Sequence record: NC_048748.1
Source: Escherichia phage vB_EcoS_HdH2
Reading direction: 5' to 3' (one strand)
DNA: 64,000 nucleotides
Within the stretch, counting starts at the first letter, position 1; the number at the start of each line of letters is the position of its first letter. The notes beneath the pieces were generated by a model. It saw only the letters and a program-made list of their open reading frames with translations, was not told where the DNA came from and did not search any database. The translations under genes were made by a program, and so were the position numbers. Below, piece after piece: positions 4,934 to 56,917 of the stretch.

Positions 4934-4940
4934 TAGGGTG

Positions 4941-27938: not shown

Positions 27939-27996
27939 TAATTTATATAAATATTATAGCAATAAATAAGAGAGAAAGCAAATGAATTTTTAAATT

Positions 27997-28850: not shown

Positions 28851-28867
28851 AGAGATTCCTTAAAGAT

Positions 28868-28943: not shown

Positions 28944-28948
28944 TAAAT

Positions 28949-29023: not shown

Positions 29024-29029
29024 ATTGTT

Positions 29030-29105
29030 TGGCTGGGATGCCACGGATCGAACGTGGAACCTTCGGAGTCAGAGGCCGACGATCTGCCAATTGATCTACA
29101 TCCCA
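29030..29105 (-). tRNA. tRNA, probable anticodon CTG (Gln)
   Basis: CCACG/TTCGATC/CGTGG T arm, perfect acceptor TGGGATG/CATCCCA. Confidence 0.45.
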
Positions 29106-29118
29106 ATAATTCTTTACT

Positions 29119-29313
29119 CTACGGAAATAGAGTAACTGGCTCAGGGTCTTCAAGACGCTTACCTTCATGATCTACTCGAATGACTCCACATCCTTCGCAA
29201 ACCACAACTGCACCATAACCTTCTTTGACTTCGGCTTCTGTAATCAAACCAGAAAGATCACCAGTATCTCTGCCCCACATATCAATGGAGCATTGTTTGC
29301 AGAAATCAGCCAT
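29119..29313 (-). CDS. small Cys-rich protein (zinc ribbon)
   Basis: CKQC ... CEGC pairs. Confidence 0.35.
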   Translation of the reverse strand: MADFCKQCSIDMWGRDTGDLSGLITEAEVKEGYGAVVVCEGCGVIRVDHEGKRLEDPEPVTLFP

Positions 29314-29338
29314 ATTTTATTTCCTATTTAAGTTAACT

Positions 29339-29415
29339 TGGGGTGGCTAGTGGAATTCGAATCCACATAGGCCTGATTCACAATCAGGATCATTAACCAA
29401 TTATGATATAGCCAC
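29339..29415 (-). tRNA. tRNA-His (anticodon GTG)
   Basis: Anticodon arm CCTGA/TTGTGAA/TCAGG, extra 5' G typical of tRNA-His. Confidence 0.55.
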
Positions 29416-29782
29416 AATTGAAAACTCGCAGGGTTAGCGAAACCTTCCTCAATTAGCATGTTCTAGAATACTAATCAAGTTATCTCCTATTGCACGCAGC
29501 TCAAGACGAGTACGAATTTTCAATTGTGGTGGCTCTCAGAAACTCTTCTATTCTAGCCTCAGAAGCTTACCCCCGAACGCCTGTCGGGAAAGTCTTTCCA
29601 AGAGCATCAAATAGCACCGTTACACTTTGAGCCATTGATGTATCGAGGAATAGAAGGACTTGAACCTTCATGAGTTAGACCATTTAACTCAACCGCTTTT
29701 AAGGTATATTTCTAGGAGTGGATGTTCCTAGTAAACCTATTGGGCAGTCCCATCTACCAATTCCGGCATATTCCAAGAACTT

Positions 29783-29965
29783 TTATAAACCAGCAGAAGC
29801 CTCATTTAAAGCATCAACAATAGCCTGTTGTTGAGTCCATCCTCTACCAGTAGAATTAACGTGTGGAAGATATACTTCCCAATAACCGTCTTCTAGTAAA
29901 GTTATTTGTGCACTAAACTCTGTGCCATCAGTTAGTGTAACCTTCACAGTTTTCGTTAAAGACAT
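29783..29965 (-). CDS. hypothetical protein
   Basis: 60 aa. Confidence 0.35.
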   Translation of the reverse strand: MSLTKTVKVTLTDGTEFSAQITLLEDGYWEVYLPHVNSTGRGWTQQQAIVDALNEASAGL

Positions 29966-29980
29966 ATATTACCCTATAAG

Positions 29981-30070
29981 TTGGCAGAAGGTAATGGAGT
30001 CGAACCATCACCGTATCACTACAGCGGGCTAGTTTTCAAGACTAGTTGCGTACCACTACGCCCTACCTTC
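29981..30070 (-). tRNA. tRNA-Ser (anticodon TGA), type II
   Basis: 90 nt with long variable arm; anticodon arm CTAGT/CTTGAAA/ACTAG. Confidence 0.55.
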
Positions 30071-30077
30071 TATTTGT

Positions 30078-30168
30078 TTGGCGGAAGAGGAGAGATTTGA
30101 ACTCTCAAGCCGTTTTACCAGTCAGCCACTTTCCAAGCGGTTTTCGTCGCCAATTCGATTTGCTCTTC
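30078..30168 (-). tRNA. type II tRNA (Ser/Leu class; anticodon possibly GGA)
   Basis: 91 nt, TTCAAAT T-loop, perfect 7-bp acceptor. Confidence 0.45.
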
Positions 30169-30280
30169 CAATAATAAGATGATGCCTCTATCACACCAGG
30201 CAGTTACGCCCCACTGGGATTCGAACCCATTAAAACAGCTCAACCGAGATAGTAGGTTTAATTTACTCTGAACATCAAAT

Positions 30281-30357
30281 TTGGTGCGTGACAAGGGATT
30301 CGAACCCTCAAAACCCGACTTCTAAGGACGGTATGTATGCCCATTCCATCAATCACG
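30281..30357 (-). tRNA. tRNA (anticodon unresolved, possibly TAG)
   Basis: GAGGG/TTCGAAT/CCCTT T arm and acceptor GCGTGAT/GTCACGC. Confidence 0.4.
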
Positions 30358-30362
30358 CGTAT

Positions 30363-30441
30363 TTGGTGGAGAATAACGGAATCGAACCGTTCTGATGTCC
30401 TCGGTGCAAGCGAGGTGTCCACTCCATGCAGACCCATTCCC
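30363..30441 (-). tRNA. tRNA-Ala (anticodon TGC)
   Basis: Anticodon arm CCTCG/CTTGCAC/CGAGG, T-loop TTCGATT. Confidence 0.5.
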
Positions 30442-30700
30442 CAAATTCTTTAGTTTACTAAGGCTATTAGCTCGGCGTAACTACAGCACCTTCGCTTCGA
30501 GCGGAAGGAACCGCGTCATCTCGCAAACCCGATACACTATTCAGTTGCCATGAATCTAGTGGACTAATCTAGAACTTCTCCCAAATCGTAGGGATCGTGC
30601 TTTTTGGCAGCCAGTCCTAGGTCGAGCTAATACCTTAGTGAACTATGATGAGGATTTCTCCCCATCAATTTATATAAATATTATAACAAGAAATTAAGCA

Positions 30701-31060
30701 TTAAGCAAGTACATTTTTGCAGATTTCTTGTAGTTCCTTTACATCACGAACGTAAAGATAGTCTGAACTTCCAGAGTGCATACTTTGCATAAACACACCC
30801 TCATCTGGCGCAGTATCCTTCAAAGTAATTCCTAACCAGAACTCGGCAAAACTAGGTGTTATCTCACCTTGACTTGCCTTGAATACATCGGCTTCTGTGA
30901 TCTCCTGACCAGTAGAAAGTCCCATATACGGTACGTTCAGATCAATATCTTTGTAGAATTCAGCTAGGTCTTGTTCGAAGTCCCAACCTTTAGAGATAGC
31001 GAACTCTATTGTTACATGACCGAAATAGCCTTGAACCTTGCTTGATAATTGCATTTGCAA
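30701..31060 (-). CDS. hypothetical protein
   Basis: 119 aa. Confidence 0.45.
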   Translation of the reverse strand: MQMQLSSKVQGYFGHVTIEFAISKGWDFEQDLAEFYKDIDLNVPYMGLSTGQEITEADVFKASQGEITPSFAEFWLGITLKDTAPDEGVFMQSMHSGSSDYLYVRDVKELQEICKNVLA

Positions 31061-31079
31061 TTCCTTATTTTGAGTTAAT

Positions 31080-31152
31080 TGGTACTCGGTGATAGAATCG
31101 AACTATCGCAACCGCCGTGTAAAGACGGGGTTCTCCCATTAAACTAACCGAG
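31080..31152 (-). tRNA. tRNA-Val (anticodon TAC)
   Basis: Loop TTTACAC, T arm GATAG/TTCGATT/CTATC. Confidence 0.5.
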
Positions 31153-31286
31153 CAAAAGATTTGCTACTAAAAATGCTTCGAACAGAAATTCACAAAATCC
31201 CGCTAAAAACATACCTATTGTAAAATCGGCAGAAAATACATAGGAATCTTTTATTTTCTGCTTCATTAAGTAAAACCAGATAGTCA

Positions 31287-31604
31287 TTAAAATCTCTCCA
31301 TTCTAAAGCCAATGAAGTAAGGTGCATTACACGGAACATGCTTAAGATCTTTGAGAGTAATTTTACGTCCTAAGCGTCGTTCCATACAAGTGAAACATAG
31401 AACAATATCTTTGGGCTGCTCTTTTCTTATCTGATCCCAGACCCAATCTTCAACCATACACATTTCATGGTATTGTTCACAGTCTCGACAATAATGACAC
31501 TGATGTTCTGGTACTTTTTGATTTTTAATACACAGTTCGGTAAAGCGTTTTCCGGCTCTGCCAGACATTTCTGATATTGTTTCTAGAACTTTGTTAATAT
31601 TCAT
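31287..31604 (-). CDS. Cys-rich hypothetical protein
   Basis: 105 aa; CHYCRDC ... CFTC. Confidence 0.45.
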   Translation of the reverse strand: MNINKVLETISEMSGRAGKRFTELCIKNQKVPEHQCHYCRDCEQYHEMCMVEDWVWDQIRKEQPKDIVLCFTCMERRLGRKITLKDLKHVPCNAPYFIGFRMERF

Positions 31605-31621
31605 AACAAATTCCTTTAAAT

Positions 31622-31700
31622 TGGTAGATCGCCTGGGACTCGAACCCAGAACCTTCCGATTAAAAGTCGGATGCTGCTAAACCTATTGCGCTAGCGACCT
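31622..31700 (-). tRNA. tRNA-Lys (anticodon TTT)
   Basis: Anticodon arm TCCGA/CTTTTAA/TCGGA, T arm CTGGG/TTCGAGT/CCCAG. Confidence 0.55.
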
Positions 31701-31889
31701 ATTAGTAGCCATTATATACTTCTTTAATAGAATGGACTTTTAAGTAAGAATGATTAATCCCAAACTCCGCCATTACTTCTTTTTCATCTTTTCCATAATG
31801 TGCAAGTAAGGATCTTGAGGTATTATTACCTAAACGTTTGTCACTTACTACTAATCGAAATACTTTCATTTCGAAATCCTCTATTAAAA

Positions 31890-31967
31890 TGGAAGCGGGT
31901 GCAGGAATCGAACCTACCTCTTTCTAGCTTATGAGACTAGCGATCTCTACCAGAGATCTAACCCGCA
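31890..31967 (-). tRNA. tRNA with CAT anticodon (Met/fMet/Ile2)
   Basis: Anticodon loop CTCATAA; U-U at acceptor 1:72. Confidence 0.45.
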
Positions 31968-31973
31968 ATTGTT

Positions 31974-32049
31974 TGGTCAGTGCGGCAGGACTCGAACCTG
32001 CGACCCGAAGCATCCAAGGCTCCCACGCTACCAACTGCGCTACGCACTG
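31974..32049 (-). tRNA. tRNA-Pro (anticodon TGG)
   Basis: Perfect acceptor CAGTGCG/CGCACTG, anticodon arm GGAGC/CTTGGAT/GCTTC. Confidence 0.55.
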
Positions 32050-32258
32050 TTAATTTTTGTTAACTCACTTTATAAAATATATTATACAGATAATTAAGCA
32101 TAATAGCAAATGAATTTTTAATAAATTTACTTATTGTGTAGGCCACCTGGAGGCTACCAACCCCACGGCTGACAAAGAAGTTTGCGAGACTTCTCTTAAA
32201 AGCCAGAATAGACCCGCCGATCTATCGGAACCTACATAATAAGTAAACTTTATAGTGT

Positions 32259-32379
32259 CATTCTAGACAGGATTCGAACCTGTTATCCCTTGTGCGGACT
32301 TACGAGAACCCTTCTTTCACTCGAATCGAACGAGCTTCTGCCCTCGCCAAGTTGGTTTCCCCATCAACCACGCTAGAAT
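32259..32379 (-). ncRNA. tRNA-like element about 121 nt with two T-arm-like hairpins and a matched acceptor-like stem
   Basis: ATTCTAG/CTAGAAT ends, D-arm-like TGGT...ACCA, hairpins GCTCG-TTCGATT-CGAGT and ACAGG-TTCGAAT-CCTGT. Confidence 0.35.
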
Positions 32380-32501
32380 GTTTGGTTGTTTTCAGTGCAA
32401 GAGTCCGAGTCTTGGACACGACCGCTTCGCAAGTACATAGGCAGCTTATCATGAGTCAGCACTTCCGAATTGCTAGCTCCGTGTTCTGCACTGAAATTTT
32501 A

Positions 32502-32849
32502 TTAGTTTAACCGTAAAGTATTATCTACTTCAACATTAATTGTTCGGCATTCCTCTGGGATTGCTGGGGTGGCCTTGTATTCCCACCACTCAGCACCGTC
32601 ATACTCCCCACGTTCTAGCCAAGTTCCATCGGCAAACCATACATTACCATAAAGTAATTGTCCACCGTATCCAGAATCATATTCAAAGTCTAGGTTATTA
32701 AGAAAATCCTCAATATCTTCTTCTGTATAGCCTAAAGGTAGTACCCAAATTTTTTTATCCCCATAATACCCGAATTCTATTTTAATACACTTAACTTTAG
32801 AATTGGTATTTTTTAAGGCGAGTAACAGCTCTTCTTTAGCATTACGCAT
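32502..32849 (-). CDS. hypothetical protein
   Basis: 115 aa. Confidence 0.45.
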   Translation of the reverse strand: MRNAKEELLLALKNTNSKVKCIKIEFGYYGDKKIWVLPLGYTEEDIEDFLNNLDFEYDSGYGGQLLYGNVWFADGTWLERGEYDGAEWWEYKATPAIPEECRTINVEVDNTLRLN

Positions 32850-32874
32850 AGTATATTCTCATACTGAATTAATT

Positions 32875-32951
32875 TGGCGCGACCGATGGGATTTGAACCC
32901 ACATTCCCTCCCGTGACAGGGGAGTACCATTACCAAGCCAGCCCCGGTCGC
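32875..32951 (-). tRNA. tRNA-Asp (anticodon GTC)
   Basis: Perfect acceptor GCGACCG/CGGTCGC, anticodon arm CTCCC/CTGTCAC/GGGAG. Confidence 0.55.
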
Positions 32952-32960
32952 ATAATTTAT

Positions 32961-33146
32961 TTACTCAGCTTTGAGTTTTTCAATAGCTGCATTAAGTTCT
33001 TTAAGAAACTCTTTTCGTACATTAAGACGATTGAGACTTACTAGTATATCATGTTTAAGTTCTTCGATGTATTTCTTCTCAACTTCAATATTGTTGATAG
33101 TGCTATCACGATGAACTTCTAGCTGCGCAATCACATTCTTGGACAT
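32961..33146 (-). CDS. hypothetical coiled-coil protein
   Basis: 61 aa. Confidence 0.35.
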   Translation of the reverse strand: MSKNVIAQLEVHRDSTINNIEVEKKYIEELKHDILVSLNRLNVRKEFLKELNAAIEKLKAE

Positions 33147-33247
33147 GCTTGTTTCCTCAGTTATTAATGAAAATGGTATCTGTGGCTGAATTCGATGTCA
33201 GCAATGATAGCTGGTTGGCTACCGGTTTACTTAACTCTACACAGAAT

Positions 33248-33330
33248 TTGGCGGGCCGTGTAGGATTCGAACCTACGTTGTCTTTCGACATGGATTAACA
33301 GTCCACCGCCAAACCGCTTGGCTAACGACC
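33248..33330 (-). tRNA. tRNA, anticodon GTT (Asn) by manual fold, unusually long variable region
   Basis: 83 nt; D arm GCCA...TGGC, loop CTGTTAA. Confidence 0.4.
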
Positions 33331-33483
33331 CTAAATTTATATTGCTGACTAGGATTTTCACCTAGACGGAGTTAGCACCGTAGCGTGTAGCGGCATACCT
33401 CTCCAAACCGTGCCTCATCTTTCAATTACGGAGACAGTGTTCCTACGCGTGCCTGAATTGATTTAACAATTCTTTCAGCAAAT

Positions 33484-33559
33484 TGGACGACCGCATGAGA
33501 TTTGAACTCACATAAAAAGGATTTGCAATCCTTCGCCTAAGCCATTCAGCCAACGGTCG
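33484..33559 (-). tRNA. tRNA-Cys (anticodon GCA)
   Basis: Anticodon arm AAGGA/TTGCAAA/TCCTT, T-loop TTCAAAT. Confidence 0.5.
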
Positions 33560-33628
33560 GTTTATCTTGTTCTGTTATGTTGCTTCTCCAGTTCAATTTA
33601 TGTAATTATTATACAGAACTTTCGGAAA

Positions 33629-33901
33629 CTAAGCAACTACATTTTTTAAGAATTTGATGCCTTTCTTTTTCTTCTTATATTTCCACGTTAATGGATTCTG
33701 TCGATTATGAACGCTTGAGATCTTCGTCTCGTCAAAGTTCTTCAATATCATGTAATCACAAGATAATTGTTCTAGTGGAATGTGATCACCGTCAAAAGCA
33801 TATACATAAGGCTGTTGACTAGCACGATAATGATAGACTTTATTAATTCTACGTTTCAGCGACTTATCCGCGCAGTAAATAAAGAAGTTTTCAGGATGCA
33901 T
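33629..33901 (-). CDS. hypothetical protein
   Basis: 90 aa. Confidence 0.4.
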   Translation of the reverse strand: MHPENFFIYCADKSLKRRINKVYHYRASQQPYVYAFDGDHIPLEQLSCDYMILKNFDETKISSVHNRQNPLTWKYKKKKKGIKFLKNVVA

Positions 33902-33918
33902 CAGCAGCTCCTTTAATT

Positions 33919-33993
33919 TGGTGCACCCTGTTCGTATCGAACGAACCTCTCAAGCTCTTCAGGCAAGCGCTAATCCATCTCAGCTAAAGGTGC
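33919..33993 (-). tRNA. tRNA (anticodon unresolved)
   Basis: T arm GTTCG/TTCGATA/CGAAC, CCA encoded, 7-bp acceptor with G-U. Confidence 0.4.
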
Positions 33994-33999
33994 AAATTT

Positions 34000-34076
34000 T
34001 GGCAAACCTACTAGGACTCGAACCTAGACCGTACGGTTTTGGAGACCGACATGCTGTCCAGTAACACTCTAGGAAT
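34000..34076 (-). tRNA. tRNA-like, possible anticodon CCA (Trp); acceptor pairing poor
   Basis: T arm CTAGG/TTCGAGT/CCTAG, loop CTCCAAA. Confidence 0.3.
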
Positions 34077-34083
34077 GCAGAAA

Positions 34084-34161
34084 TTGGCGTCCTGTGCGGG
34101 GATCGAACCCGCAAATCCTACCTTGAAAGGGTAGTGACTTTACCAGTTTGTCTAACAGGAC
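34084..34161 (-). tRNA. tRNA-Glu (anticodon TTC)
   Basis: Perfect acceptor, anticodon arm CTACC/CTTTCAA/GGTAG. Confidence 0.55.
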
Positions 34162-34168
34162 TTAAATT

Positions 34169-34259
34169 TGGTGTTGGATGATGGAGTCGAACCACCCGAG
34201 ACCCTTCCGAGTCGGCAGATTTACAGTCTGCTTCGCTACCTCTACGATACTAATCCAAC
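34169..34259 (-). tRNA. tRNA-Tyr (anticodon GTA), type II
   Basis: 91 nt, anticodon arm GCAGA/CTGTAAA/TCTGC, long variable arm. Confidence 0.55.
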
Positions 34260-34387
34260 ATATTTAAAAGTATTCAAATACTAGTTTAAACACTTTTAAA
34301 TATGTTTCCGAATTAGATAACTATTATACCAAGTTTTAAGGCACTGAGCAAGTCAAATTTTAAAGAACTTGCTCAGTGCTGTATTAG

Positions 34388-34663
34388 TTAGTCGAACTTA
34401 GGAGTGACAGTTAAGGAGAACGGAAGTTCGAAAACTTCTTCGCCCTCATTACTAACGGTAACTACACGACCTTTAAGTTCAGACATTAAAATATCAATAT
34501 CAGCTTTTGCATCTGGAGCCATGCCAGCTTCAATACATTTAGCTTTAACTTCCGGTAAAAGCTCTACGTTATAGAGATAGAGCCACTCAATCTCACCTTC
34601 CCAGTCTTCCCAGGATTTGCAGATTGCACTTTCAATACCAGTTGCTACAACACGATTTTGCAT
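34388..34663 (-). CDS. hypothetical protein
   Basis: 91 aa. Confidence 0.4.
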   Translation of the reverse strand: MQNRVVATGIESAICKSWEDWEGEIEWLYLYNVELLPEVKAKCIEAGMAPDAKADIDILMSELKGRVVTVSNEGEEVFELPFSLTVTPKFD

Positions 34664-34753
34664 TCGTTAACTCCTTCATCAATTTATACAACTATTATAT
34701 CAGAAATTTAAAGCAAAAGGCAAGTACATTTTTAAAAATTCTGTTTGGAGGAG

Positions 34754-34960
34754 CTAAACTCCAGATTCTTCAGCTAAGTCTAGACTAATAAGAGTTATAG
34801 CCATAATTGCTGCACCGTGTTCTTTTTCTCCGGTGTTTTTAGCAGAGTCTATAATATCCTTAATCTGTTCGTAATAACTTTTTACTTCTTGTTCAATGCC
34901 TGCCTCGGCTATCATGCCTTTAGCCATGAATCGTTGCATGGTAATTTCAGGATTAGCCAT
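34754..34960 (-). CDS. hypothetical protein
   Basis: 68 aa. Confidence 0.35.
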   Translation of the reverse strand: MANPEITMQRFMAKGMIAEAGIEQEVKSYYEQIKDIIDSAKNTGEKEHGAAIMAITLISLDLAEESGV

Positions 34961-35134
34961 GTTGTTTCTCCAGTTTCATTTTTAATAGTTTACAGAGGAA
35001 ATCAACGTCTTCATCTGTGCCTAAGTCTCTATCCTCAAGGGTCGCCTTGAAGTTTTTCGTCAATTCCATGAGGATGACTTCCCTAGAACGACGTGTTAGC
35101 GGAGGTGGATGTCTATACATCTTATTTCCTTAAT

Positions 35135-35211
35135 TTGGTAGGGGTGGTGGGATTCGAACCCACAAAACCTGAATTTTAAGTCCAGTACCTATGCCAATTC
35201 GATTACACCCC
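35135..35211 (-). tRNA. tRNA (type I length; apparent anticodon TAA, assignment uncertain)
   Basis: T arm GTGGG/TTCGAAT/CCCAC, acceptor GGGGGTG/CACCCCT. Confidence 0.4.
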
Positions 35212-35428
35212 CGTGTAATTTAGTCAATTACTTTTGAAGCTTCAAGGTAGTCGATATAGTGTACGTTTTCTACCGTAATCATATAATCTGCCACTTTATC
35301 CATAGCTTGGGCTTCAGAGGTAGCTCTGGCTAACCTATATCCTTTTTTATATTCATCAGGGTATTCTCTATCTTGAATAAACACAACATAAACTATGTAT
35401 AATTCCACTTGTAATCCCCTAATTAAGT

Positions 35429-35506
35429 TGGTGGCTCCCCGAGGATTCGAACCTACGTACCTTCCGGTTATGAGCCGGGTGCTCATACCATATGAGCTTG
35501 AGAACC
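35429..35506 (-). tRNA. tRNA-like with CAT anticodon; T stem has a bulge
   Basis: Acceptor GGTTCTC/GGGAGCC pairs with G-U; loop CTCATAA. Confidence 0.35.
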
Positions 35507-35512
35507 AGAATT

Positions 35513-35601
35513 TGGCGGAAGAAGTGGGAATCGAACCCACAAGGCTATATTTCAAACCGACAGATTAGCAATCTGCTGCAATACCGTTATGCTATTCTTC
35601 C
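35513..35601 (-). tRNA. tRNA-Ser (anticodon GCT), type II
   Basis: 89 nt, perfect acceptor GGAAGAA/TTCTTCC, loop TTGCTAA. Confidence 0.5.
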
Positions 35602-35621
35602 GAATTTATAAATATATTATA

Positions 35622-36191
35622 TTAGAAATTTAACTTCATAGCAAGAAAATTTTTCAAGTTTTCGGTAGACATCTCATCCACATCTATAGGAGAAACAAAC
35701 CCATTTAATTGTCTAGCAAACTTTTCGCCAGCAGGATCATTATCCCCAACAGCTACCAATTTAAAAGGTAGTAATTTCAATTGCTTTAACAACGCTTTTC
35801 CGGGGGAAGAACCCAACATTGCTAGGGCAGGATAACCAGCGTTATGTAACGCAACTGCCTTAAATACAGATTCAGCAATCAATACTACTTTTTCATCTCC
35901 ATTGAGAGTTTCTAGTCCCCATACACACTGTGTAGTAGAATAAGTAAAATATTTAGCCTCAAAGGGACACTTACCATGACCTTTTGGAGCAGAAGGATTA
36001 TAAGTCTGATAGCCTCTCAACATCCCAGAGAAGTCATACAATGGGACTGTTAGCCAGCCTTCTGGGCTTAACCAGCAATGATATTTATCTGTATCAAACC
36101 CTCTAGATAAGAGATGTTCTGTTAGTTCATCAACAGTCATATTAGATTCCTCTCTCAAATTTATAAATATATTATACAGAGAATTTAGCAT
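35622..36191 (-). CDS. hypothetical protein, possible Toprim-like fold
   Basis: LIAESVFKAVAL ... VAVGDNDPAGEKFA resembles E...DxD Toprim signature; weak. Confidence 0.4.
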   Translation of the reverse strand: MLNSLYNIFINLREESNMTVDELTEHLLSRGFDTDKYHCWLSPEGWLTVPLYDFSGMLRGYQTYNPSAPKGHGKCPFEAKYFTYSTTQCVWGLETLNGDEKVVLIAESVFKAVALHNAGYPALAMLGSSPGKALLKQLKLLPFKLVAVGDNDPAGEKFARQLNGFVSPIDVDEMSTENLKNFLAMKLNF

Positions 36192-36315
36192 TCAAGCAAT
36201 TGAATTTTTTAACTTTTTAGAGGAAAATCATAGGATGCTTAAGGGTAGCAGATAAGTGGTGAGTACCGAAATTTGTGACCCCACTAAAAATCTGGGGGCA
36301 ATTTTTAAAGACCCC

Positions 36316-36344
36316 TTGACATTTTCGCCGGGGTAGTGTAAAGT
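36316..36344 (+). promoter_or_regulatory. sigma70-type promoter (TTGACA-17-TAAAGT, TG-extended)
   Basis: Consensus -35; precedes the plus-strand three-gene cassette. Confidence 0.5.
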
Positions 36345-36406
36345 ATATGTTATGGATGAGTGATCAAAGAGACACACATTTTCTATATACTAGGAGGTGT
36401 CAAAAA

Positions 36407-37396
36407 ATGACAGAAGAAGTAGCTAAGAGTCCTGAAACCGTCGCTAGCGTAGCAGCAGAACTGCATCGTCACGAGGAATCAGATAAGAAAAAGTGGGAGA
36501 AAGTCAAAGCCTACGAAGAAGAACATCGTGAACACGATGATAAAGATGAAGAAGATGACGATGATGAACATTGTCATAAATATGGAAAACATAAAATGCA
36601 AGAACCAGTAAACGTATTTACTAACGGCTTCCCTGGCATGGGTGCATTCCCAGCTAACGCAAGTGCTTTCGGTGGAGAAGGTATGGGCCTATTCGGAGCT
36701 ATCCTAATCGGTGCTCTATTAACAGGCGGATTTGGTGGTTTCGGTGGATTCGGTGGACGTGGTGTAGTTAGTGATGGTACCGCAGTTGATGCAGTACTTC
36801 AGAACCAAGATACCGCTAGTATTCTAGCAGCTATTAACACTACTCGTACAGAAGCTAATCAGGGTACTGGAGCTGTTTTAAGCGCAGTTAACAATGGTTT
36901 TAGCCAGACATCCCAAAACCAGAGCCGTGATACTCAGTCTGTACTAACTACGATCTATGGTACAGGTGCTAATCTGTCTAATCAGATCTGCCAGGAAACT
37001 CGCAACGTTATTCAGGGTCAGTTCGATCTTTCTCGCCAGATTGATCAATCTTTCGCAGCTAACCAGATAGCTCGTGCACAAGATAAGTTTGATTCTGCAC
37101 AGATCGCTTTCCAGCAGACTTTACAAACTAATAACCAGTTTGCCGCTGTTCAGGCTCAGATGTGTGCTAACCAGAACTCTCTGGAACGTCAGATCGCTGA
37201 ATGTTGCTGTGAACTTCAGACTGCGATCGCTGGTGTAACTACTGCGCGTATCCAGGATGAGTTAGACGCATGTCGCCTACGTGAAGCAATCGCTGCGGGT
37301 AGCGGTGCTAACGGTCAGGTAATTAATCAAATCGCTTTAAGTCTTGGTGCTATCACTCAGACTCTGGCTGGTCTGCAGGCTAAACTGCCGGCTTAA
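36407..37396 (+). CDS. membrane protein: acidic His-rich N-terminus, Gly-zipper TM segment, Q/N/T/A-rich C-terminal domain
   Basis: ORF 36347-37396 trimmed to MTEEV after aggagg RBS; GLFGAILIGALLTGGFGGFGGFGG segment. Confidence 0.5.
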   Translation: MTEEVAKSPETVASVAAELHRHEESDKKKWEKVKAYEEEHREHDDKDEEDDDDEHCHKYGKHKMQEPVNVFTNGFPGMGAFPANASAFGGEGMGLFGAILIGALLTGGFGGFGGFGGRGVVSDGTAVDAVLQNQDTASILAAINTTRTEANQGTGAVLSAVNNGFSQTSQNQSRDTQSVLTTIYGTGANLSNQICQETRNVIQGQFDLSRQIDQSFAANQIARAQDKFDSAQIAFQQTLQTNNQFAAVQAQMCANQNSLERQIAECCCELQTAIAGVTTARIQDELDACRLREAIAAGSGANGQVINQIALSLGAITQTLAGLQAKLPA

Positions 37397-37417
37397 TATT
37401 AAGGGGAGGAGCCCATT

Positions 37418-47524: not shown

Positions 47525-48057
47525 TAATAAGTAACCAATTCCTGTACAAATCGCAGGCTGTTATCACTGTTTGCGCCAACTGCATAGACTAATCGAGTGG
47601 ATTCATAGTTATAATCCAGTATCATACTATCTAGGTGTACATCTGACTCTAGCTTCTGCTCACTAAAGATTGTAGATACAAAAGCACTTTCTATATGCCC
47701 ATGCTGATACATTTCTAGGAGAAGATTAGCTCCGCCTAGAACTACTGTCTGTTGATCTTTTAAGAATGTAGGTAATGTATCCCCAATCTTTGAAATTGGG
47801 GTATAGATACCCTGTTTAATATCATCAGGCAGAGGACGATCCGCACGAATAAAGAGGTCGGATTCTCCAATCATACGTTGCCGAACAACTTCTGGAAGTG
47901 CTAAATAAGTACCCGCACCAATGATGATGTTATCTGGATTCAACACGTCCAGTTGAGAATAGAAAGCATCTAGCTCTTCTTTGAAGGAACCCCAGGGAAG
48001 TTTACCTCGGAGGCCGAACTCTCCATTCGGCCCAACTGCATACATTGCTGTAATCAT
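47524..48057 (-). CDS. Dihydrofolate reductase
   Basis: 177 aa, N-terminal MITAMYAVGPNGEFG...LPW DHFR pattern; immediately downstream of thyA. Confidence 0.65.
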   Translation of the reverse strand: MITAMYAVGPNGEFGLRGKLPWGSFKEELDAFYSQLDVLNPDNIIIGAGTYLALPEVVRQRMIGESDLFIRADRPLPDDIKQGIYTPISKIGDTLPTFLKDQQTVVLGGANLLLEMYQHGHIESAFVSTIFSEQKLESDVHLDSMILDYNYESTRLVYAVGANSDNSLRFVQELVTY

Positions 48058-49199
48058 AAGAAATCTCCAAATTCATTACCCAGATCTTTCAGAGTATCAG
48101 TAGAGGTCTCAGTTACCTGACCTACACGGTAGGCTGCACCAATCTGGATTTCTTGCGGAGCAGGCTGTAGAGAAGTAGTATCCAACCAGTTCATGATCCA
48201 CGGAATAGGGTTTTTGGTGATTACCGGCAGATTACTTGGCCATTCTACACCGATGTGCATAAATGCATTACGCCCCACAAAGTACAAGTATTCTTCTAGA
48301 AGTTCTGCATTCAAACCGATTAGACTACGACCTTTGAAGATGAAATGACCCCATTCAATTTCAGTTTTCAGAGTTTTCAGGAGCTGTGCTGGTGCTTTAG
48401 CCACTGCTTCATCTACCAGATCTTTGTCAAACTGCTGGAACATAATCTGGATGATTGCTTTAGACATCTGGGTGTGCAGAGCCTCATCTTTAGCGATTAA
48501 TTGCAGGTTCTTAGCAATACCTTGCAGAATATCGTTCTCTGCTAGAGCAAAAGTACATGCAAAGGATGCGTAGAACTGCATTGCTTCCAGACCGTAGATT
48601 GCAAAATAAGCATCTAACAGTTTAGCCTGAGTTTCACGCTTAACTTCAGGGAACTCAGTTTCTGGATATGTATTGTCACCACGATGATCACGTACTGCGA
48701 TGAAATACTGACCTAACTGGTACAGTTCATCGAACAGTTCAACAGAATCTGCGATACGTGCAAATGCTTCTTGGTTTTTAGTTACAGAATCAATAAATTC
48801 TGCTGGATCAGTCAGCACATTACGAATAATATTGCTATAGGCACGACTATGCAGGTCTTCGAAGTAGCTCCACTGCTTTAGCATACCTTCCAATTCTGGA
48901 CGACTTACAAGTGGCATAATAGCTGCTTCAGGCGCTCGACTGATAAAGGAATCAGTTTGAGTCTGCCATGCTAAATTCAGAAGTGTAATTTCCTGAATTT
49001 CACGTGGGAGGTTAGGCCATTGTTTCTTATCGGCTTCTAAACTGATTTCTGTCTCAGTCCAAAATTGAGAGCGTTGCAGAAGTGCCAGACGTTCTAGTTC
49101 TGGATGTGCTACACGTACATAATCTGCGATACCTAGAGAATCGCCCAGGAAAAGATCAGCGTTAGTATGATCCCAATTCAGGTTTAGTAAAGTAGTCAT
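48054..49199 (-). CDS. nrdB: Ribonucleotide reductase small subunit (class Ia beta)
   Basis: 381 aa ferritin-like; adjacent to nrdA. Confidence 0.8.
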   Translation of the reverse strand: MTTLLNLNWDHTNADLFLGDSLGIADYVRVAHPELERLALLQRSQFWTETEISLEADKKQWPNLPREIQEITLLNLAWQTQTDSFISRAPEAAIMPLVSRPELEGMLKQWSYFEDLHSRAYSNIIRNVLTDPAEFIDSVTKNQEAFARIADSVELFDELYQLGQYFIAVRDHRGDNTYPETEFPEVKRETQAKLLDAYFAIYGLEAMQFYASFACTFALAENDILQGIAKNLQLIAKDEALHTQMSKAIIQIMFQQFDKDLVDEAVAKAPAQLLKTLKTEIEWGHFIFKGRSLIGLNAELLEEYLYFVGRNAFMHIGVEWPSNLPVITKNPIPWIMNWLDTTSLQPAPQEIQIGAAYRVGQVTETSTDTLKDLGNEFGDFL

Positions 49200-49306
49200 T
49201 GATTTTCCTCTTTCTCACTATTTCAGGAATATTATAGCAAATCAGGTAGCGATTAGCAAGTAAAATTTCAAAGAAAAAGGAGACCCGAAGATCTCCTTGT
49301 CTTTTA

Positions 49307-51637
49307 TTACAACTGGCAACCACCAGAAGCACAACCCGCTGCTTCTTCACCCGCTCCTCCACCATTCGCAGTGTTGAAGTTTGCGTAGTACCAAGTCTTC
49401 CAACCATATTTAACAGCAGTCATGAAATCACGAACTACTACTGGGCCAGGAATGATTTCATTCTCAAACTTGGTGTAGTCGTAGTACATATTAGTACTGA
49501 TAGACTGGCTGAAGAATTTCTGCATAGTTGCTACCCATTTGATCCATTCAATACGATCCACATCATAAGCCAGTTTATAGCTCATTAAAGTTTCCCAATC
49601 AGTTGCACCTGGGGCAATTGCAATTACTTTATTCACTGCACTACCCTTGATAGATACAATCTTACGAGGTGGTTCAATAGAGTTAGTAACGCCTAACAGA
49701 ACAGAAGAACTTTCTCCCGGCATCTGCGCAGTCAGAACAGAGTTACGCATACCGTACTTCAGAATATCTGCACGCAGAGACTCCCAATCCATTTCTAGAC
49801 CTACTGATACCAGTTCATCAACAGTTTTCTTGTACGTGTCGATTACTAGTATTCCTTTAGATGGTTTAGTACGATCGAACCACTCACATGCACCTTGCTC
49901 TTTGGCTAGACGTACAGAGGCTTTATGCAGGAAGTAAGACAGTTTTTCAGCTTCACGATGGATCCAGTTACGTGCTTCAACGCCTTCATAAGCCAGACCT
50001 TCTGCTGCCATTGCACCTGCTGCGTTCATAAGGCCAATACCAACGTTACGACGTTTCTTAGCTGTATATTCCATAGTTGGGAACGGATAGTCCTGAATTT
50101 CAATGATGGTATCAACGAATTTCAGAAGAATATAGCAAGTCTTTTCCCACTCAGCCAGAGATTCCATGCGTCCTAGTACAACACCACCTAAGTTACACAG
50201 AGATACTTCACCAATATCCTCCGGCTTCATTTGATCAAGTTGTTCTTTTGTTTTATACAGTTCCGTGATATGATGGAACGGACGTGTAGGCTGAGTAATT
50301 TCAACACAAAGGTTTGTCATACGGATCGGATCAAGGAAGTTACCGTGACGATTAGATTCCCCGATGTGGTGAGCATACATACGTCCTGTTTCCATTCGGA
50401 TACGTAGCCAAGTATCTAGGATTTCTTTTGCAGAGACTTTAGGAGCTGCTGGAACTGTTTTTCCTTCGTGGTCGATCTTTGTAAGAGATGCCACACGTTT
50501 CTCCGCTGCCACATAGATTTTTTCAAATTTAGCCTCGTCATCACTATAAAACGCTTCATGAACTTCTGGGGCATAGAAGTATGACATTAGCGTAATATCT
50601 TCATTTTTCAGATAACGTTTTAACAAAAGATTGTTGAAGCTCAGAGAATAATCCATCTTATCGATTTTATTCTCATCTGTAGCACGTTGTTGCTTAACCT
50701 GCATCAACTGAATGATTTCAGGGTCAAAGTAAGGATAAGACACTGTAGCAGAACCACCACGAGTTTGCTGAGTATTGGCCTTTACTGAGCGGTCAATGTG
50801 TCGATAATATGGCAGTTTTCCGGAATGCGGGAATGCCCCATTTCGCACCGGATCAGCAATTGATCGGCTTTCAAGATGATACCCGATTCCCGCTCTGGCT
50901 GCGACCATTTTGAAGACGATGTGCTCGGCTGTGTCGATTGAATCCAATGTGTCAGTGGAATCAACGAGGCAACAACTAGCAAATCCACGGTCACTAGAGC
51001 GCAAGCCAACCAATGGCGGCGTAGGAACGTTGATTTTGTGGAGCGACATTGCATTGTAGAGATCGATTGCATCTAGAATTGTCCAGTTAGGTTGAGATAG
51101 CATCGCCATTGCCATACCCATGTAGGCAAACTGCGGGGTTTCGTAAATTTCGCCAGTTGCGATATTACGACGGGAATACTTATCAAAGAATTGTTTCAAT
51201 CCTCCGCTAGTGAAAAGACGGTCGCGATCATGGTCGATAACCTGATTCAGAGCTTCAAATTGCTCATCGGTAATCCATGCACTCATGTCTTCCCATGCAC
51301 CTACACTAACCATATGATCGTGGAAAAAGCGTAGAGAAGGTGGTTCGAAGGAATCATAAAGGCGTTTACGCATCTGCGCAAGACGTAATTCCTTTGCTGG
51401 CACGTCGTATGCTGGATTATCTTTGATAAGACTTTCAGCAGCTTTAATTAAAGCATCCATCAGAGTGTCGGAATCTACAACCCCTTTAGGCAGAGTTTTT
51501 TGAGCAGCCATAGTAATGGCTGACCAACTTACATCAACTGTTTTGCAACCATACTCTGCCCAACCATTGAGTTTTTCAGGAGCAAAGTCTTCTACAGTAC
51601 CGTCACGTTTAATTACTTTTTCGATGCGATGGCTCAT
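49307..51637 (-). CDS. nrdA: Ribonucleotide reductase large subunit (class Ia alpha)
   Basis: ATP-cone VIKRDGTVEDF at N-terminus; C-terminal Cys pair; ORF trimmed to MSHRIEK start. Confidence 0.85.
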   Translation of the reverse strand: MSHRIEKVIKRDGTVEDFAPEKLNGWAEYGCKTVDVSWSAITMAAQKTLPKGVVDSDTLMDALIKAAESLIKDNPAYDVPAKELRLAQMRKRLYDSFEPPSLRFFHDHMVSVGAWEDMSAWITDEQFEALNQVIDHDRDRLFTSGGLKQFFDKYSRRNIATGEIYETPQFAYMGMAMAMLSQPNWTILDAIDLYNAMSLHKINVPTPPLVGLRSSDRGFASCCLVDSTDTLDSIDTAEHIVFKMVAARAGIGYHLESRSIADPVRNGAFPHSGKLPYYRHIDRSVKANTQQTRGGSATVSYPYFDPEIIQLMQVKQQRATDENKIDKMDYSLSFNNLLLKRYLKNEDITLMSYFYAPEVHEAFYSDDEAKFEKIYVAAEKRVASLTKIDHEGKTVPAAPKVSAKEILDTWLRIRMETGRMYAHHIGESNRHGNFLDPIRMTNLCVEITQPTRPFHHITELYKTKEQLDQMKPEDIGEVSLCNLGGVVLGRMESLAEWEKTCYILLKFVDTIIEIQDYPFPTMEYTAKKRRNVGIGLMNAAGAMAAEGLAYEGVEARNWIHREAEKLSYFLHKASVRLAKEQGACEWFDRTKPSKGILVIDTYKKTVDELVSVGLEMDWESLRADILKYGMRNSVLTAQMPGESSSVLLGVTNSIEPPRKIVSIKGSAVNKVIAIAPGATDWETLMSYKLAYDVDRIEWIKWVATMQKFFSQSISTNMYYDYTKFENEIIPGPVVVRDFMTAVKYGWKTWYYANFNTANGGGAGEEAAGCASGGCQL

Positions 51638-51779
51638 TTGGCTTTCCTTTTTATAGTTATCAGGATTTAAGGAATATTCTACTTTATTATTGGTCATTAG
51701 GCAAATAAAATTTTCTGATAGAAAAGGCCCGAGTATTTTCATACCCAGGCCCTGTATATTACCAGTCTAGCTTTTTAGC

Positions 51780-53107: not shown

Positions 53108-55079
53108 ATGAATCGCAATGAAGAACTAAAGTATAAAGAAATGCAGGCGTTAATTAGAAACTGCAAAGAGATTATCGAAGGGTCAGCAGATGAAGAGCTG
53201 CTGTTTAATAATGCCAATAAACCCTCAGAACGTTTCCCTACACAAAGGGATATGCTTGCAGGTGAATTGAGTAAGTATCTGATTCTAGAAGAAATGCCAA
53301 TTCAGATTCGAAATGCTCATATGATTGGGGATATTCATTTCCATGATGCTGATTATGCTGCATTAGGCATGACTAACTGTTGCCTGGTAGCTCTGGAAGA
53401 TATGTTGAAGAATGGTATGAAGGTTGGTAATGCTGAAATTAGCACTCCAAACTCTATCACTACTGCGGCGGCTATCACTGCTCAGATTATCACTCAAGTT
53501 AGCTCCCATCAGTATGGTGGTACTTCTGTAGACCGATTAGATGAAGTATTGGCTCCTTATGTTCGTAAGTCTTATGATAAGAATCATGCGTTTGCAAAAC
53601 GTTGGACTAAGGATGAAGCCAAAGCATCCGTAATGGCTACGGAGATGACTGAAAAAGAAGTCTATGATGCTTGTCAAGGTTTAGAATATGAAATCAATAC
53701 CATGTTCAACTCTAATGGTCAGAGCCCATTTATTACCTTTGGTTTTGGTCTAGGGACTTCTTGGGAAGCTCGTCTAGTACAGAAAGCAATACTGAAAGTA
53801 CGTATGGATGGTTTAGGTATCAATAAACGTACAGCTATCTTTCCGAAACTGGTGTTTGTTCTGCGTGATGGCGTAAATATGAAGCCAGGAGATGTTAATT
53901 ATGACATCAAGAAGTTAGCTATGAAATGTACTGCTGAACGTATGTATCCCGACTATATCAGCTACGATAAGGTTGTGGAAGTTACTGGTGACTATAAAGT
54001 TTCTATGGGCTGCCGTTCATTCCTAGCTGCTACAGAAGATGGTGAAACTGCAGGTCGTAATAACTTAGGTGTTGTTTCTGTAAACTTGCCTAGAATTGCT
54101 ATCGAAGCTGAAGGGAATATTGATCTATTCTTTGATTTGCTTGAGCTACGTGTGGATACAGCGTTAAAAGCATTGGAGTGGAGAGTTGATCGCTTAAAAT
54201 ACATTCAAGCTAAAGCCGCGCCCATCCTCTATATGTCAGGAGCCTTTGGGTTACGCTTGGGGCCTGATGAATATGTATTCGATCATTTCTATAACCGTGC
54301 TTTTATGCAGGTCTCGGACATTGTGTCTACATCTTTGCCAAACATGAACTGTAGCATTTCATGGCAACCAATATACCCTAGAGATACAGAAGCACCGTTC
54401 TGTATCTCTAGGGTATATTGGTTGCCATGAAATGCTACAGTTCATGTTTGGCAAAGATGTAGACACAATGTCCGAGACCTGCATAAAGTTTGTTCAGCGT
54501 GTATTGCAGTACATGCGAGATAGAGTCGATCAGAAGAAGGAAGAAACTAAGTTAGGTTATAGCCTGTATGCTACACCATCAGAATCCCTATGTGACCGTT
54601 TTTGTCGTCTAGACCGGGAATATTTCCCGGAGCATGAAGATATTCTGTCCAAAGGATACTACACTAACTCTCACCACCTTGATGTGGAACGTAAAGTTGC
54701 TCCTAACGTGAAATTTGATTATGAATCTAACTTTACTCCTATTGCTTCTGGTGGGTGTATTTCCTATGTAGAACTACCGGATATGAAACGATTCCCAGAT
54801 GCACTGGAATGGGTTATTAATTATGCTGCTAGTAAAGTTCATTACTTCGGTATTAATACTCCAGTGGATTCTTGTGGTAAATGTGGATTCTTAGGTGAAA
54901 CAATAGCATCCGAAGATGGGTTTAAGTGCCCTATCTGTGGTAATCATGACCCAGAAACTCTTGAAGTAACTCGTCGAGTTTGTGGATATCTTGGAAATCC
55001 AGGTGCTCGTCCATTTAACCCTGGCAAACAGCACGAGGTTATGGGCAGGGTGAAACACCAGGATATTCGAGCTAAATAA
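53108..55079 (+). pseudogene. nrdD: Anaerobic ribonucleotide reductase NrdD, reading frame split at 54302-54398 by an inverted duplication
   Basis: ORFs 53108-54430 and 54432-55079 match the N- and C-terminal parts of NrdD (C-terminal CPICG/RVCGYLG glycyl-radical region); removing 97 nt restores one frame. Confidence 0.7.
54302..54487. repeat. Perfect palindrome: 88-bp arms (54302-54389 and 54400-54487) around a 10-bp spacer
   Basis: Right arm is the exact reverse complement of the left arm, verified base by base. Confidence 0.85.
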
Positions 55080-56744: not shown

Positions 56745-56917
56745 TTAAATCTGTGTATACACACCCTGATGATATATTTGTATGGGCGGACGGTAGTTGG
56801 TGCTATCGCTGTGAGTTGTGGGAAATGGACTATAAATCCGATGACTATGGTGTTATATATGTGGATACGGTTGAGTATGATACGTTCTTAGAAAGGAACA
56901 AAAATGGAAATAAGTAA
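56735..56917 (+). CDS. hypothetical protein
   Basis: 60 aa. Confidence 0.35.
   Translation: MSIIKSVYTHPDDIFVWADGSWCYRCELWEMDYKSDDYGVIYVDTVEYDTFLERNKNGNK

What the first reader, a model, noticed from the sequence alone, without database searches (positions are those of the whole stretch)
54293..54497. Perfect 186-bp palindrome (88-bp arms) splits the anaerobic ribonucleotide reductase gene nrdD
Positions 54302-54389 are the exact reverse complement of 54400-54487, with a 10-nt spacer whose complement nearly repeats the native left flank aaccgtgctt. The inserted 97 nt (54302-54398) is therefore an inverted copy of the adjacent downstream nrdD codons. Deleting it joins frame 53108-54301 to frame 54399-55079 and yields ...FYNRA-SVSLGYIGCHE...FGKD..., which follows the E. 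coli NrdD sequence as I recall it. This is either a real fold-back duplication that inactivates nrdD or creates a cruciform site, or a fold-back chimera from amplification or assembly.
Basis: seen in the sequence. Interest (0 to 1): 0.8.

Follow-up and report, generated by a model that had tools for sequence, protein, structure and literature searches.

The report
Inverted-duplication scar splitting phage nrdD
In one database record of a T5-like E. coli phage, 97 bases of the anaerobic ribonucleotide reductase gene are repeated backwards next to themselves. This makes a perfect hairpin-capable palindrome that breaks the gene; it is seen in no related genome and is more likely a leftover of genome assembly than biology.

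Summary
The net change is a 97-nt insertion (54302-54398). It is the reverse complement of the 8 nt before it plus the 89 nt after it, with one mismatch at 54396.

Removing it restores a 624-aa NrdD identical to that of phage slur09. The two broken ORFs are exactly QBQ81197.1 and QBQ81198.1 of Escherichia phage vB_EcoS_HdH2 (MK373796, Korf et al. 2019).

None of 390 related phage records carries the insert, and neither do three large contig collections. A SNP found in no relative sits in both arms, so the copy was made from this genome itself.

The source paper closed and re-linearised a single contig per phage. A sibling record (KAW1A4500) carries an obvious unpolished contig-end scar inside essential genes.

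My leading reading (about 0.6) is a fold-back stub left at a contig closure point. The rival (about 0.33) is a genuine private template-switch mutation that knocks out a dispensable gene. Either way it is a one-off, non-functional inverted duplication. Interest is low, and only raw reads or PCR can decide between the two.

The parts
53108..54301 (+). nrdD codons 1-398 (native 5' part, ends ...FYNRA)
   Evidence: Pfam NRDD profile positions 2-354. Collinear with VSe12 NrdD and with solved NrdD structures.
54294..54301 (+). 8-nt native segment ACCGTGCT. Its inverted copy, with one mismatch, forms the last 8 nt of the insert.
   Evidence: The reverse complement of the insert aligns to the restored gene from this position with 1 mismatch in 97. 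CGT is conserved in all five relatives aligned.
54302..54398 (.). The 97-nt insertion: the reverse complement of native 54294-54301 plus 54399-54487. It shifts the frame because 97 mod 3 = 1.
   Evidence: It is absent from all 390 related phage records. In those records the same 98 nt matches only on the opposite strand of nrdD.
54302..54391 (.). Left arm of the palindrome (the inverted copy)
   Evidence: 90 nt, 100% complementary to 54398-54487.
54392..54397 (.). 6-nt loop GCACCG. Position 54396 (C) is the single mismatch; a faithful copy would have G.
54398..54487 (+). Right arm: native nrdD sequence, the source of the copy
   Evidence: Contiguous with the left flank in all relatives.
54485..54485 (+). 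Synonymous SNP not found in any relative searched (ATA where relatives have ATC), mirrored at 54304 in the inverted copy
   Evidence: All 5 aligned relatives have C. The 28-mers carrying A are absent from the phage collection and from three contig collections.
54399..55079 (+). nrdD codons 399-624 plus stop (native 3' part, includes the glycyl-radical domain)
   Evidence: Pfam NRDD profile positions 367-562 and Gly_radical; restored ORF.
53108..54430 (+). ORF as deposited, 440 aa (QBQ81197.1). The last 42 aa are out-of-frame read-through of the insert.
54432..55079 (+). ORF as deposited, 215 aa (QBQ81198.1). It starts at native Met410, one base after the stop of the first ORF (TGAaATG).

Best explanation
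The palindrome is a one-off, non-functional inverted duplication that exists only in the deposited genome of Escherichia phage vB_EcoS_HdH2 (MK373796). Most likely it is a technical scar.

Inferred sequence of events:
1. A fold-back (copy-back) molecule or read turned round at nrdD position about 54294-54399. It formed a 97-nt stub, in reverse orientation, at one end of the original assembly contig.
2. The authors closed their single contig and re-cut it at the physical genome ends. They trimmed the redundant other end at the point where self-alignment began.
3. This left the non-aligning stub in place, giving exactly 'native base n | 97-nt inverted copy | native base n+1'.

Because the stub is a true sequence in reverse, it is nearly error-free. 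The one error sits at the turn.

Shown: the structure, its uniqueness, its origin from this genome's own allele, the closing and re-linearising procedure, and a comparable uncorrected contig-end scar in a sibling record.

Inferred: that the closure point of HdH2 lay here, and that the phage itself has an intact nrdD.
For: (1) Singleton. None of 390 related records has the insert: in the 40 best-matching records listed, 1001 nt of query span 904 nt of record in two pieces, and no record covers at least 80% of a junction query. The centre junction is absent from viral, metagenome and genome contig collections.

(2) Clean insertion. No native base is lost or gained. Junction microhomologies are only 1 nt and 2 nt, about what chance gives. 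This is what trimming by alignment coordinates would produce.

(3) Source identified as HdH2. Original contig ends therefore lie inside the deposited genomes.

(4) A sibling record from the same study, KAW1A4500 (MK373773), has 76 deleted bases relative to phage K1E. They ramp up over 7.75-9.25 kb (4, 0, 3, 12, 15, 42 per 250 nt), with only 23 mismatches over those six bins (none between 8.5 and 9.0 kb, 5 in the densest bin), and stop abruptly. They break the primase/helicase gene into three CDS; a separate 2-nt deletion at 4733 splits the RNA polymerase gene in two. I read this as an unpolished long-read contig end kept inside a final genome. It suggests this pipeline leaves closure scars and did not re-polish.

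(5) The only discrepancy between copy and source is at the turn (54396). The arms carry the genome's own SNP, absent from relatives.

(6) Artificial palindromes from fold-back or copy-back molecules are a documented product of library preparation and amplification.

(7) The insert cuts the conserved RA(S/T)VSLGYIG motif of a gene that is intact in all relatives.
Against: - I have no reads, so nothing shows directly that the phage lacks the insert.
- The record reports 393.6x coverage. A consensus normally reflects the majority of molecules.
- The flanks of the palindrome are flawless, with no indel ramp like the one in KAW1A4500. The restored protein is identical to slur09 NrdD.
- No other palindrome was found in about 375 kb of six sibling genomes, so this is not a systematic artefact.
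- No SMRTbell, Nextera or TruSeq adapter lies at the centre, so it is not a simple missed-adapter read.
- If HdH2 was sequenced by MiSeq/SPAdes with k = 55, graph geometry predicts an inverted stub of about 55 nt, not 94-98 (my derivation). An artefact would then be unlikely. The paper does not say which platform was used for HdH2.
- PacBio HiFi data show almost no fold-back reads, although RSII continuous long reads were not examined there.
Confidence: 0.6

Rival explanations
1. The insertion is a genuine private mutation.

During replication of an ancestor of the sequenced stock, the polymerase left its template after 54301. It jumped 89 nt ahead onto the complementary strand and copied it backwards for 97 nt, to 8 nt beyond its departure point. 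It then returned to the next native base.

This is a template-switch mutation of type 3-1-4-2 in the four-point model. It created a 186-bp palindrome and frameshifted nrdD, a gene not needed in aerobic laboratory culture. Plaque purification then fixed it.
For: - The structure fits the four-point template-switch model exactly (coordinates).
- The copy was templated on this genome's own allele.
- The consensus rests on 393.6x coverage, and the flanks are flawless.
- The phage has class Ia nrdAB upstream (ORFs 48054-51742), so loss of nrdD should be tolerated aerobically. That tolerance is an inference from T4 biology (my own knowledge).
- An interrupted palindrome of 246 bp (111-bp arms, 24-bp spacer) is tolerated by recombination-proficient E. 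coli.
- nrdD fragments occur in at least one other T5-like record, vB_Kpn_3, at 171 aa.
- With SPAdes at k = 55 and 300-nt reads, a real palindrome would assemble correctly, whereas an artefact of this length is hard to generate (my derivation).
Against: - Junction microhomologies of 1 and 2 nt are at chance level, which is weak guidance for a polymerase return.
- An extra substitution is needed 3 nt from the return point.
- Long near-perfect palindromes form hairpins that SbcCD cleaves, and T5-like phages encode their own SbcD/SbcC-like nuclease, so persistence is not a given.
- No second example was found among 390 relatives or in about 375 kb of sibling genomes.
- The source pipeline appears to leave contig-end scars.
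Confidence: 0.33
2. The palindrome is a functional or selfish element: a cruciform or hairpin site for replication, packaging or transcription termination, or the footprint of a mobile element.
For: The only support is its extreme hairpin potential.
Against: - It is absent from every relative.
- It lies inside the most conserved motif of a conserved gene and frameshifts it.
- It contains no foreign DNA. All 97 nt are a copy of adjacent gene sequence.
- There is no target-site duplication and no coding capacity.
- The perfect arm identity points to an event too recent for selection to have acted.
Confidence: 0.02
3. If the insertion is real, the two ORFs might still yield a working two-piece NrdD, with translational restart at TGAaATG, as in 'genes in pieces' ribonucleotide reductases.
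For: - The stop of ORF1 and the ATG of ORF2 are one base apart.
- ORF2 keeps the whole glycyl-radical domain.
Against: - Eleven residues, SVSLGYIGCHE, are encoded by neither ORF. They include the motif conserved from T4 to bacterial NrdD.
- ORF1 ends in 42 junk residues.
- The split falls in the middle of the NRDD Pfam domain: profile positions 355-366 are lost.
- There is no obvious Shine-Dalgarno sequence before 54432.
Confidence: 0.03

Closest known systems
Fold-back (palindromic) chimeric molecules and reads from library preparation or amplification, and unpolished contig-end scars in finished long-read assemblies
   Same: A sequence is followed directly by its own reverse complement with a very short loop and near-zero microhomology. 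It occurs at a single site in one data set. Such palindromes are documented after whole-genome amplification, enzymatic fragmentation and in long reads. A contig-end scar is present in a sibling record of the same study.
   Different: Those artefacts are normally rare reads (under 5% allele fraction) and do not reach a consensus. This one is in a deposited 'complete genome'. The stub is short (97 nt), has no adapter and has clean flanks. It needs a finishing step, contig closure, to become internal.
Template-switch mutations, four-point model of Loytynoja and Goldman 2017, type 3-1-4-2 (classic precursor: Ripley's quasi-palindrome model)
   Same: The new sequence is the reverse complement of adjacent sequence. 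Switch points are ordered 3 (54294), 1 (54301), 4 (54399 = next native base), 2 (54487). It creates a perfect hairpin de novo (coordinates).
   Different: In that study the copied fragments were short (events under 14 bp were filtered out) and type 3-1-4-2 made up about 1% of events. Here 97 nt are copied, points 1 and 4 are adjacent (a pure insertion), no pre-existing quasi-palindrome exists, and one mismatch lies near point 3.
Long DNA palindromes in E. coli and lambda studied by Leach and colleagues (SbcCD-cleaved hairpins)
   Same: The size class is comparable: 186 bp here, 246 bp interrupted and 460 bp perfect in that work. A short spacer favours hairpin formation on single-stranded templates.
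   Different: Those palindromes were engineered. Here nothing is known about cleavage or stability, and the phage brings its own SbcCD-like genes.
'Genes in pieces' ribonucleotide reductase of Aeromonas phage Aeh1 (nrdA split by the mobE homing endonuclease gene; recalled from memory, not checked here)
   Same: A phage RNR gene is present as two adjacent ORFs.
   Different: There a mobile gene separates two complete halves that reassemble. Here a self-copy frameshifts the gene and removes a conserved motif.

Membership tests
Class III (anaerobic) ribonucleotide reductase NrdD | NRDD catalytic domain (PF13597) plus C-terminal glycyl-radical domain (PF01228) | tested here: met
   ORF1 matches PF13597 profile positions 2-354 (E = 1e-99). 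ORF2 matches positions 367-562 and PF01228. The restored protein aligns end to end with solved NrdD structures 9d3x and T4 1h78.
Class III (anaerobic) ribonucleotide reductase NrdD | One uninterrupted reading frame of about 605-735 aa | tested here: not met
   The gene is split into 440-aa and 215-aa ORFs by the 97-nt insert. It is intact (624 aa) only after removal in silico.
Template-switch (four-point model) mutation | The novel segment is the reverse complement of nearby sequence in the inferred ancestor | tested here: met
   96 of 97 nt equal the reverse complement of restored positions 54294-54301 plus 54399-54487. The ancestral state is shown by the relatives: the 40 best-matching records and the five aligned.
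Template-switch (four-point model) mutation | It arose in vivo during replication and is present in the organism's DNA | not testable with these tools
   No reads are available and no independent assembly of this phage exists (the record itself is not in the phage collection).
Fold-back chimera or contig-closure artefact | Inverted copy directly abutting its source, private to one assembly | tested here: met
Fold-back chimera or contig-closure artefact | The assembly procedure placed original contig ends inside the final sequence | tested here: met
   Methods of Korf et al. [quoted passage not shown] An internal contig-end scar is seen in sibling record MK373773.
Fold-back chimera or contig-closure artefact | The closure point of this particular genome lies at 54301/54302, and most reads lack the insert | not testable with these tools
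   This needs the raw reads or the original contig.
Fold-back chimera or contig-closure artefact | Missed hairpin-adapter read (adapter sequence at the palindrome centre) | tested here: not met
   The loop is GCACCG. No SMRTbell, Nextera or TruSeq sequence lies near it.
Fold-back chimera or contig-closure artefact | Recurrent in other genomes from the same pipeline | tested here: not met
   No perfect inverted repeat of at least 18 nt was found in HASG4 1-100 kb, EASG3 1-100 kb, PTXU06, KAW1A4500, R4596 or MM01. Only 6 of 50 genomes were sampled.
Mobile element (IS, MITE or homing-endonuclease insertion) | Foreign DNA with terminal inverted repeats and/or target-site duplication or a coding gene | tested here: not met
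   The insert is entirely a copy of adjacent nrdD sequence, with no duplication of the target and no ORF of its own.
Conserved functional hairpin (origin, terminator, packaging site) | Conservation in related genomes | tested here: not met
   Absent from all 390 related records.

The most novel reading that the evidence does not exclude
The palindrome is real. On this reading a 186-bp near-perfect palindrome was born in one step by a replication template switch in a T5-like phage. It survived plaque purification and propagation even though the phage and its host both encode SbcCD-type hairpin nucleases, and it created a natural nrdD knock-out. That would be an unusually large, cleanly documented de novo template-switch event. 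It would also be a natural test case for palindrome tolerance during T5 replication.
Probability: 0.33. Interest if true: 0.3.

Novelty: not a real feature. Interest (0 to 1): 0.12.

Why it matters
The main value is curation. MK373796 and its RefSeq copy (proteins YP_009843418.1 and YP_009843419.1) present nrdD as two genes, probably because of a finishing scar. The 440-aa product, with its 42 junk residues, has propagated into UniRef.

The case is also a useful pattern. An exact 'n | inverted copy | n+1' insertion in a genome that was closed and re-linearised should prompt a check of the reads.

If the insertion turns out to be real, it would be a modestly interesting example of a large de novo template-switch palindrome and of the dispensability of nrdD in T5-like phages. 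It would not reveal a new kind of system.

Tried and rejected
- **Copy from a co-infecting or contaminating relative:** rejected. Both arms carry the genome's own A at 54485, a SNP absent from every relative searched.
- **Independent copy of this phage:** the centre junction and the SNP-bearing allele are absent from viral, metagenome and genome contigs. Exact-protein look-ups of ORF1, ORF2, the SIR2-like protein and PhoH found nothing. MK373796 is not in the phage collection.
- **Noisy long-read assembly in general:** rejected for this region. There are only a few, mostly paired, indels against Elw over 24 kb. The comparison with HASG4 is too divergent to be informative.
- **Missed SMRTbell adapter:** rejected.
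- **SPAdes k = 55 graph artefact:** the chimeric edge would start 55 nt before the first non-native base, at 54341, not at 54302. Rejected by derivation.
- **Systematic pipeline palindromes:** none found in six sibling genomes.
- **Contig break at the genome midpoint:** the palindrome centre is 583 bp from the midpoint of the non-redundant genome. The KAW1A4500 scar is not at its own midpoint, so I treat this as coincidence.
- **T5 nick-site link:** there is only one GCGC within 600 nt, 80 nt upstream. Not significant.
- **EASG3 against HASG4, to find further scars and infer the platform:** no scars found. Differences in 50-100 kb are only a 4-nt deletion and 4 SNPs, and a divergent patch lies in the terminal repeat.
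- **A guessed RefSeq accession (NC_047872):** it was an unrelated Listeria phage. Locus L006 is irrelevant.

Full report
**What is in the sequence**

Window 54302-54391 is the exact reverse complement of 54398-54487: 90-nt arms with a 6-nt loop GCACCG.

It is the only long inverted repeat in the window; the next best is 42 nt at 81%. As single-stranded DNA it would fold at -112.5 kcal/mol, against -20.4 +/- 3.4 for shuffles.

Relative to the native gene, the net change is a 97-nt insertion, 54302-54398. Its reverse complement, ACGGTGCT + CTGTATC...TGCATAAA, equals the 8 nt before the insertion point (ACCGTGCT, 54294-54301) plus the 89 nt after it (54399-54487). There is one mismatch: 54396 is C where a faithful copy would have G.

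No native base is lost or duplicated in direct orientation. Microhomology is 1 nt at the left junction and 2 nt at the right (read).

**The gene**

The flanking ORFs are the two halves of a class III ribonucleotide reductase. ORF 53108-54430 (440 aa) matches Pfam NRDD profile positions 2-354. ORF 54432-55079 (215 aa) matches positions 367-562 and the glycyl-radical domain.

Removing the 97 nt gives an 1875-nt ORF of 624 aa. It aligns end to end with solved NrdD structures. The insertion falls inside the conserved RA(S/T)VSLGYIG motif.

As deposited, ORF1 ends in 42 out-of-frame residues. ORF2 restarts at native Met410, one base after the ORF1 stop (TGAaATG). The 11 residues SVSLGYIGCHE are encoded by neither ORF. 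A working two-piece enzyme is therefore unlikely.

**Where the window comes from**

The two odd ORF products are exactly QBQ81197.1 and QBQ81198.1 (YP_009843418.1 and YP_009843419.1) of Escherichia phage vB_EcoS_HdH2, a 120,120-bp contig. The restored 624-aa protein is identical to NrdD of phage slur09 and occurs on 46 contigs.

HdH2 is MK373796, from Korf et al. 2019 (Viruses 11:454). It was isolated from chicken faeces, has a terminal repeat of 10,165 bp and a reported coverage of 393.6x. The record is not in the phage collection I could search.

The window starts at or within a few bases of the genome's left end. Its first ORF is at 119-853, against 125-859 in the sibling HASG4. The paper does not mention nrdD, a palindrome or a frameshift.

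**Is it conserved?**

No. 390 phage records contain this part of nrdD. In each of the 40 best-matching records listed, 1001 nt of query correspond to 904 nt of record in two pieces, that is, without the 97 nt.

With a query spanning the left junction and the centre, no record covers 80% of it. The records match only query positions 41-138, on the strand opposite to their nrdD. The centre junction is absent from the viral, metagenome and genome contig collections.

The two sibling T5-like phages from the same study that I checked, EASG3 and HASG4, have a single 1875-nt nrdD.

**Where the copy came from**

In five aligned relatives the left flank AACCGTGCT is invariant. The window differs from all five at only one position within the arms: A at 54485 (ATA for ATC, both Ile). 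That variant is mirrored in the inverted copy at 54304.

The allele was found nowhere else. Variants differing from all five relatives occur about once per 113 nt in this gene, 14 in 1583 nt, so one inside a 90-nt arm is expected. The inverted copy was therefore made from this genome itself, very recently or in vitro, and not from a contaminating relative.

**Two explanations remain**

*(a) A genuine replication template switch.* The geometry is a 3-1-4-2 event in the four-point model. The polymerase leaves after 54301, copies the opposite strand from 54487 back to 54294, and returns to the next native base. nrdD should be dispensable aerobically because the phage also carries class Ia nrdAB (dispensability inferred from T4). 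Palindromes of this size class can be tolerated in recombination-proficient cells, although SbcCD cleaves them. T5-like phages encode their own SbcD/SbcC-like proteins.

*(b) A technical scar.* The source paper used either PacBio RSII with HGAP.3 or Nextera-MiSeq with SPAdes at k = 55. The original contig ends therefore now lie somewhere inside each genome.

Suppose one contig end carried a short fold-back stub, and the redundant other end was trimmed where the self-alignment began. The result would be exactly 'n | inverted stub | n+1', with chance-level microhomology. The stub would have near-perfect sequence, because it is real sequence in reverse, and any residual error would sit at the turn. 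That is what is seen.

**A sibling record shows that such scars exist in this data set**

In KAW1A4500 (MK373773) the T7-like RNA polymerase is annotated as two 'frameshift' CDS and the primase/helicase as three. The sibling R4596 and phage K1E have single genes.

Against K1E (97.7% identity), KAW1A4500 has 76 deleted bases between 7.75 and 9.25 kb. They rise as 4, 0, 3, 12, 15, 42 per 250 nt. The six bins hold 23 mismatches in all (7, 6, 5, 0, 0, 5), so the three densest bins have almost none. The deletions stop abruptly. This ramp breaks the primase/helicase; the RNA polymerase is split by a separate 2-nt deletion at 4733. I read the ramp as an unpolished long-read contig end kept inside the final genome. 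It implies that the final sequences were not re-polished.

**What weighs against the artefact reading**

- The flanks of the HdH2 palindrome are flawless, with no ramp.
- Six sibling genomes (about 375 kb) contain no perfect inverted repeat of at least 18 nt, so this is not a recurrent artefact.
- No adapter lies at the centre.
- If HdH2 was a MiSeq/SPAdes genome, the k = 55 graph would give a stub starting at 54341, not 54302 (my derivation). A real palindrome would then be the simpler reading.
- Library fold-back artefacts are normally rare reads, under 5%. They were almost absent from modern PacBio HiFi data. They are common after whole-genome amplification.

**Weighing**

Real de novo palindromes of about 100-nt arms in phage isolates are, to my knowledge, very rare. 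This pipeline appears to deposit closure scars. The observed structure is what a retained fold-back stub would look like.

I put the technical scar at about 0.6 and the genuine private mutation at about 0.33. Functional or mobile-element readings are at about 0.02. They are excluded by the lack of conservation and by the insert being pure self-copy. A functional split NrdD, conditional on the insert being real, is at about 0.03.

Nothing here is a new kind of system. Under either reading it is a single copy-back event with no function, and the finding deserves a low score. Reads or a PCR across 54200-54600 (304 bp against 401 bp) would settle the matter.

Noticed in passing
L009 (MK373773, phage vB_EcoP_KAW1A4500) 4733 and 7750-9250: A sibling record from the same study has a 2-nt deletion that splits the T7-like RNA polymerase. 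It also has a ramp of 76 deleted bases relative to phage K1E, with only 23 mismatches over the ramp and almost none in its densest 750 nt. The ramp ends abruptly near 9.25 kb and breaks the primase/helicase into three CDS. It looks like an unpolished long-read contig end left inside the finished genome.
   Followed up: yes
L014 (MK373799, EASG3) record position about 78635: EASG3 differs from its 99.98%-identical sibling HASG4 by a 4-nt deletion (TTGC). The deletion splits the SbcC/Rad50-like gene into two CDS. It is unknown whether this is real or a sequencing error.
   Followed up: partly
window 4895-6415: Two imperfect inverted-repeat pairs (39 nt at 82%, 245 nt apart; 42 nt at 81%, 828 nt apart) lie in an ORF-poor part of the left terminal repeat. 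This may be the non-coding 'injection stop' region known from T5 (recalled from memory).
   Followed up: no
window 27369-39219: A cluster of 24 tRNA genes, all on the minus strand, matches the 24 tRNAs reported for HdH2. This is typical of Tequintavirus.
   Followed up: no
window 54428-54434: The stop of the first nrdD fragment and the ATG of the second are one base apart (TGAaATG). Gene callers and RefSeq therefore present two tidy adjacent genes, and the 440-aa product with its 42 junk residues has entered UniRef.
   Followed up: partly
window 54394 (palindrome centre): The centre lies 583 bp from the midpoint (54,978) of the non-redundant genome (120,120 minus the 10,165-bp repeat). I found no mechanism for this. 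The KAW1A4500 scar is not at its own midpoint, so I treat it as coincidence.
   Followed up: partly
protein cluster (QXN67584.1, Klebsiella phage vB_Kpn_3): Another T5-like record annotates a 171-aa 'anaerobic ribonucleoside triphosphate reductase 2' fragment, so nrdD is also split in at least one other deposited genome. The cause was not examined.
   Followed up: no
window 56904-57410: This 168-aa ORF matches the HAD domain of 'Swiss Army Knife' RNA repair proteins (PF18143, E = 4e-20). No nrdG-like activase was recognised among the ORFs just downstream of nrdD that I scanned.
   Followed up: no
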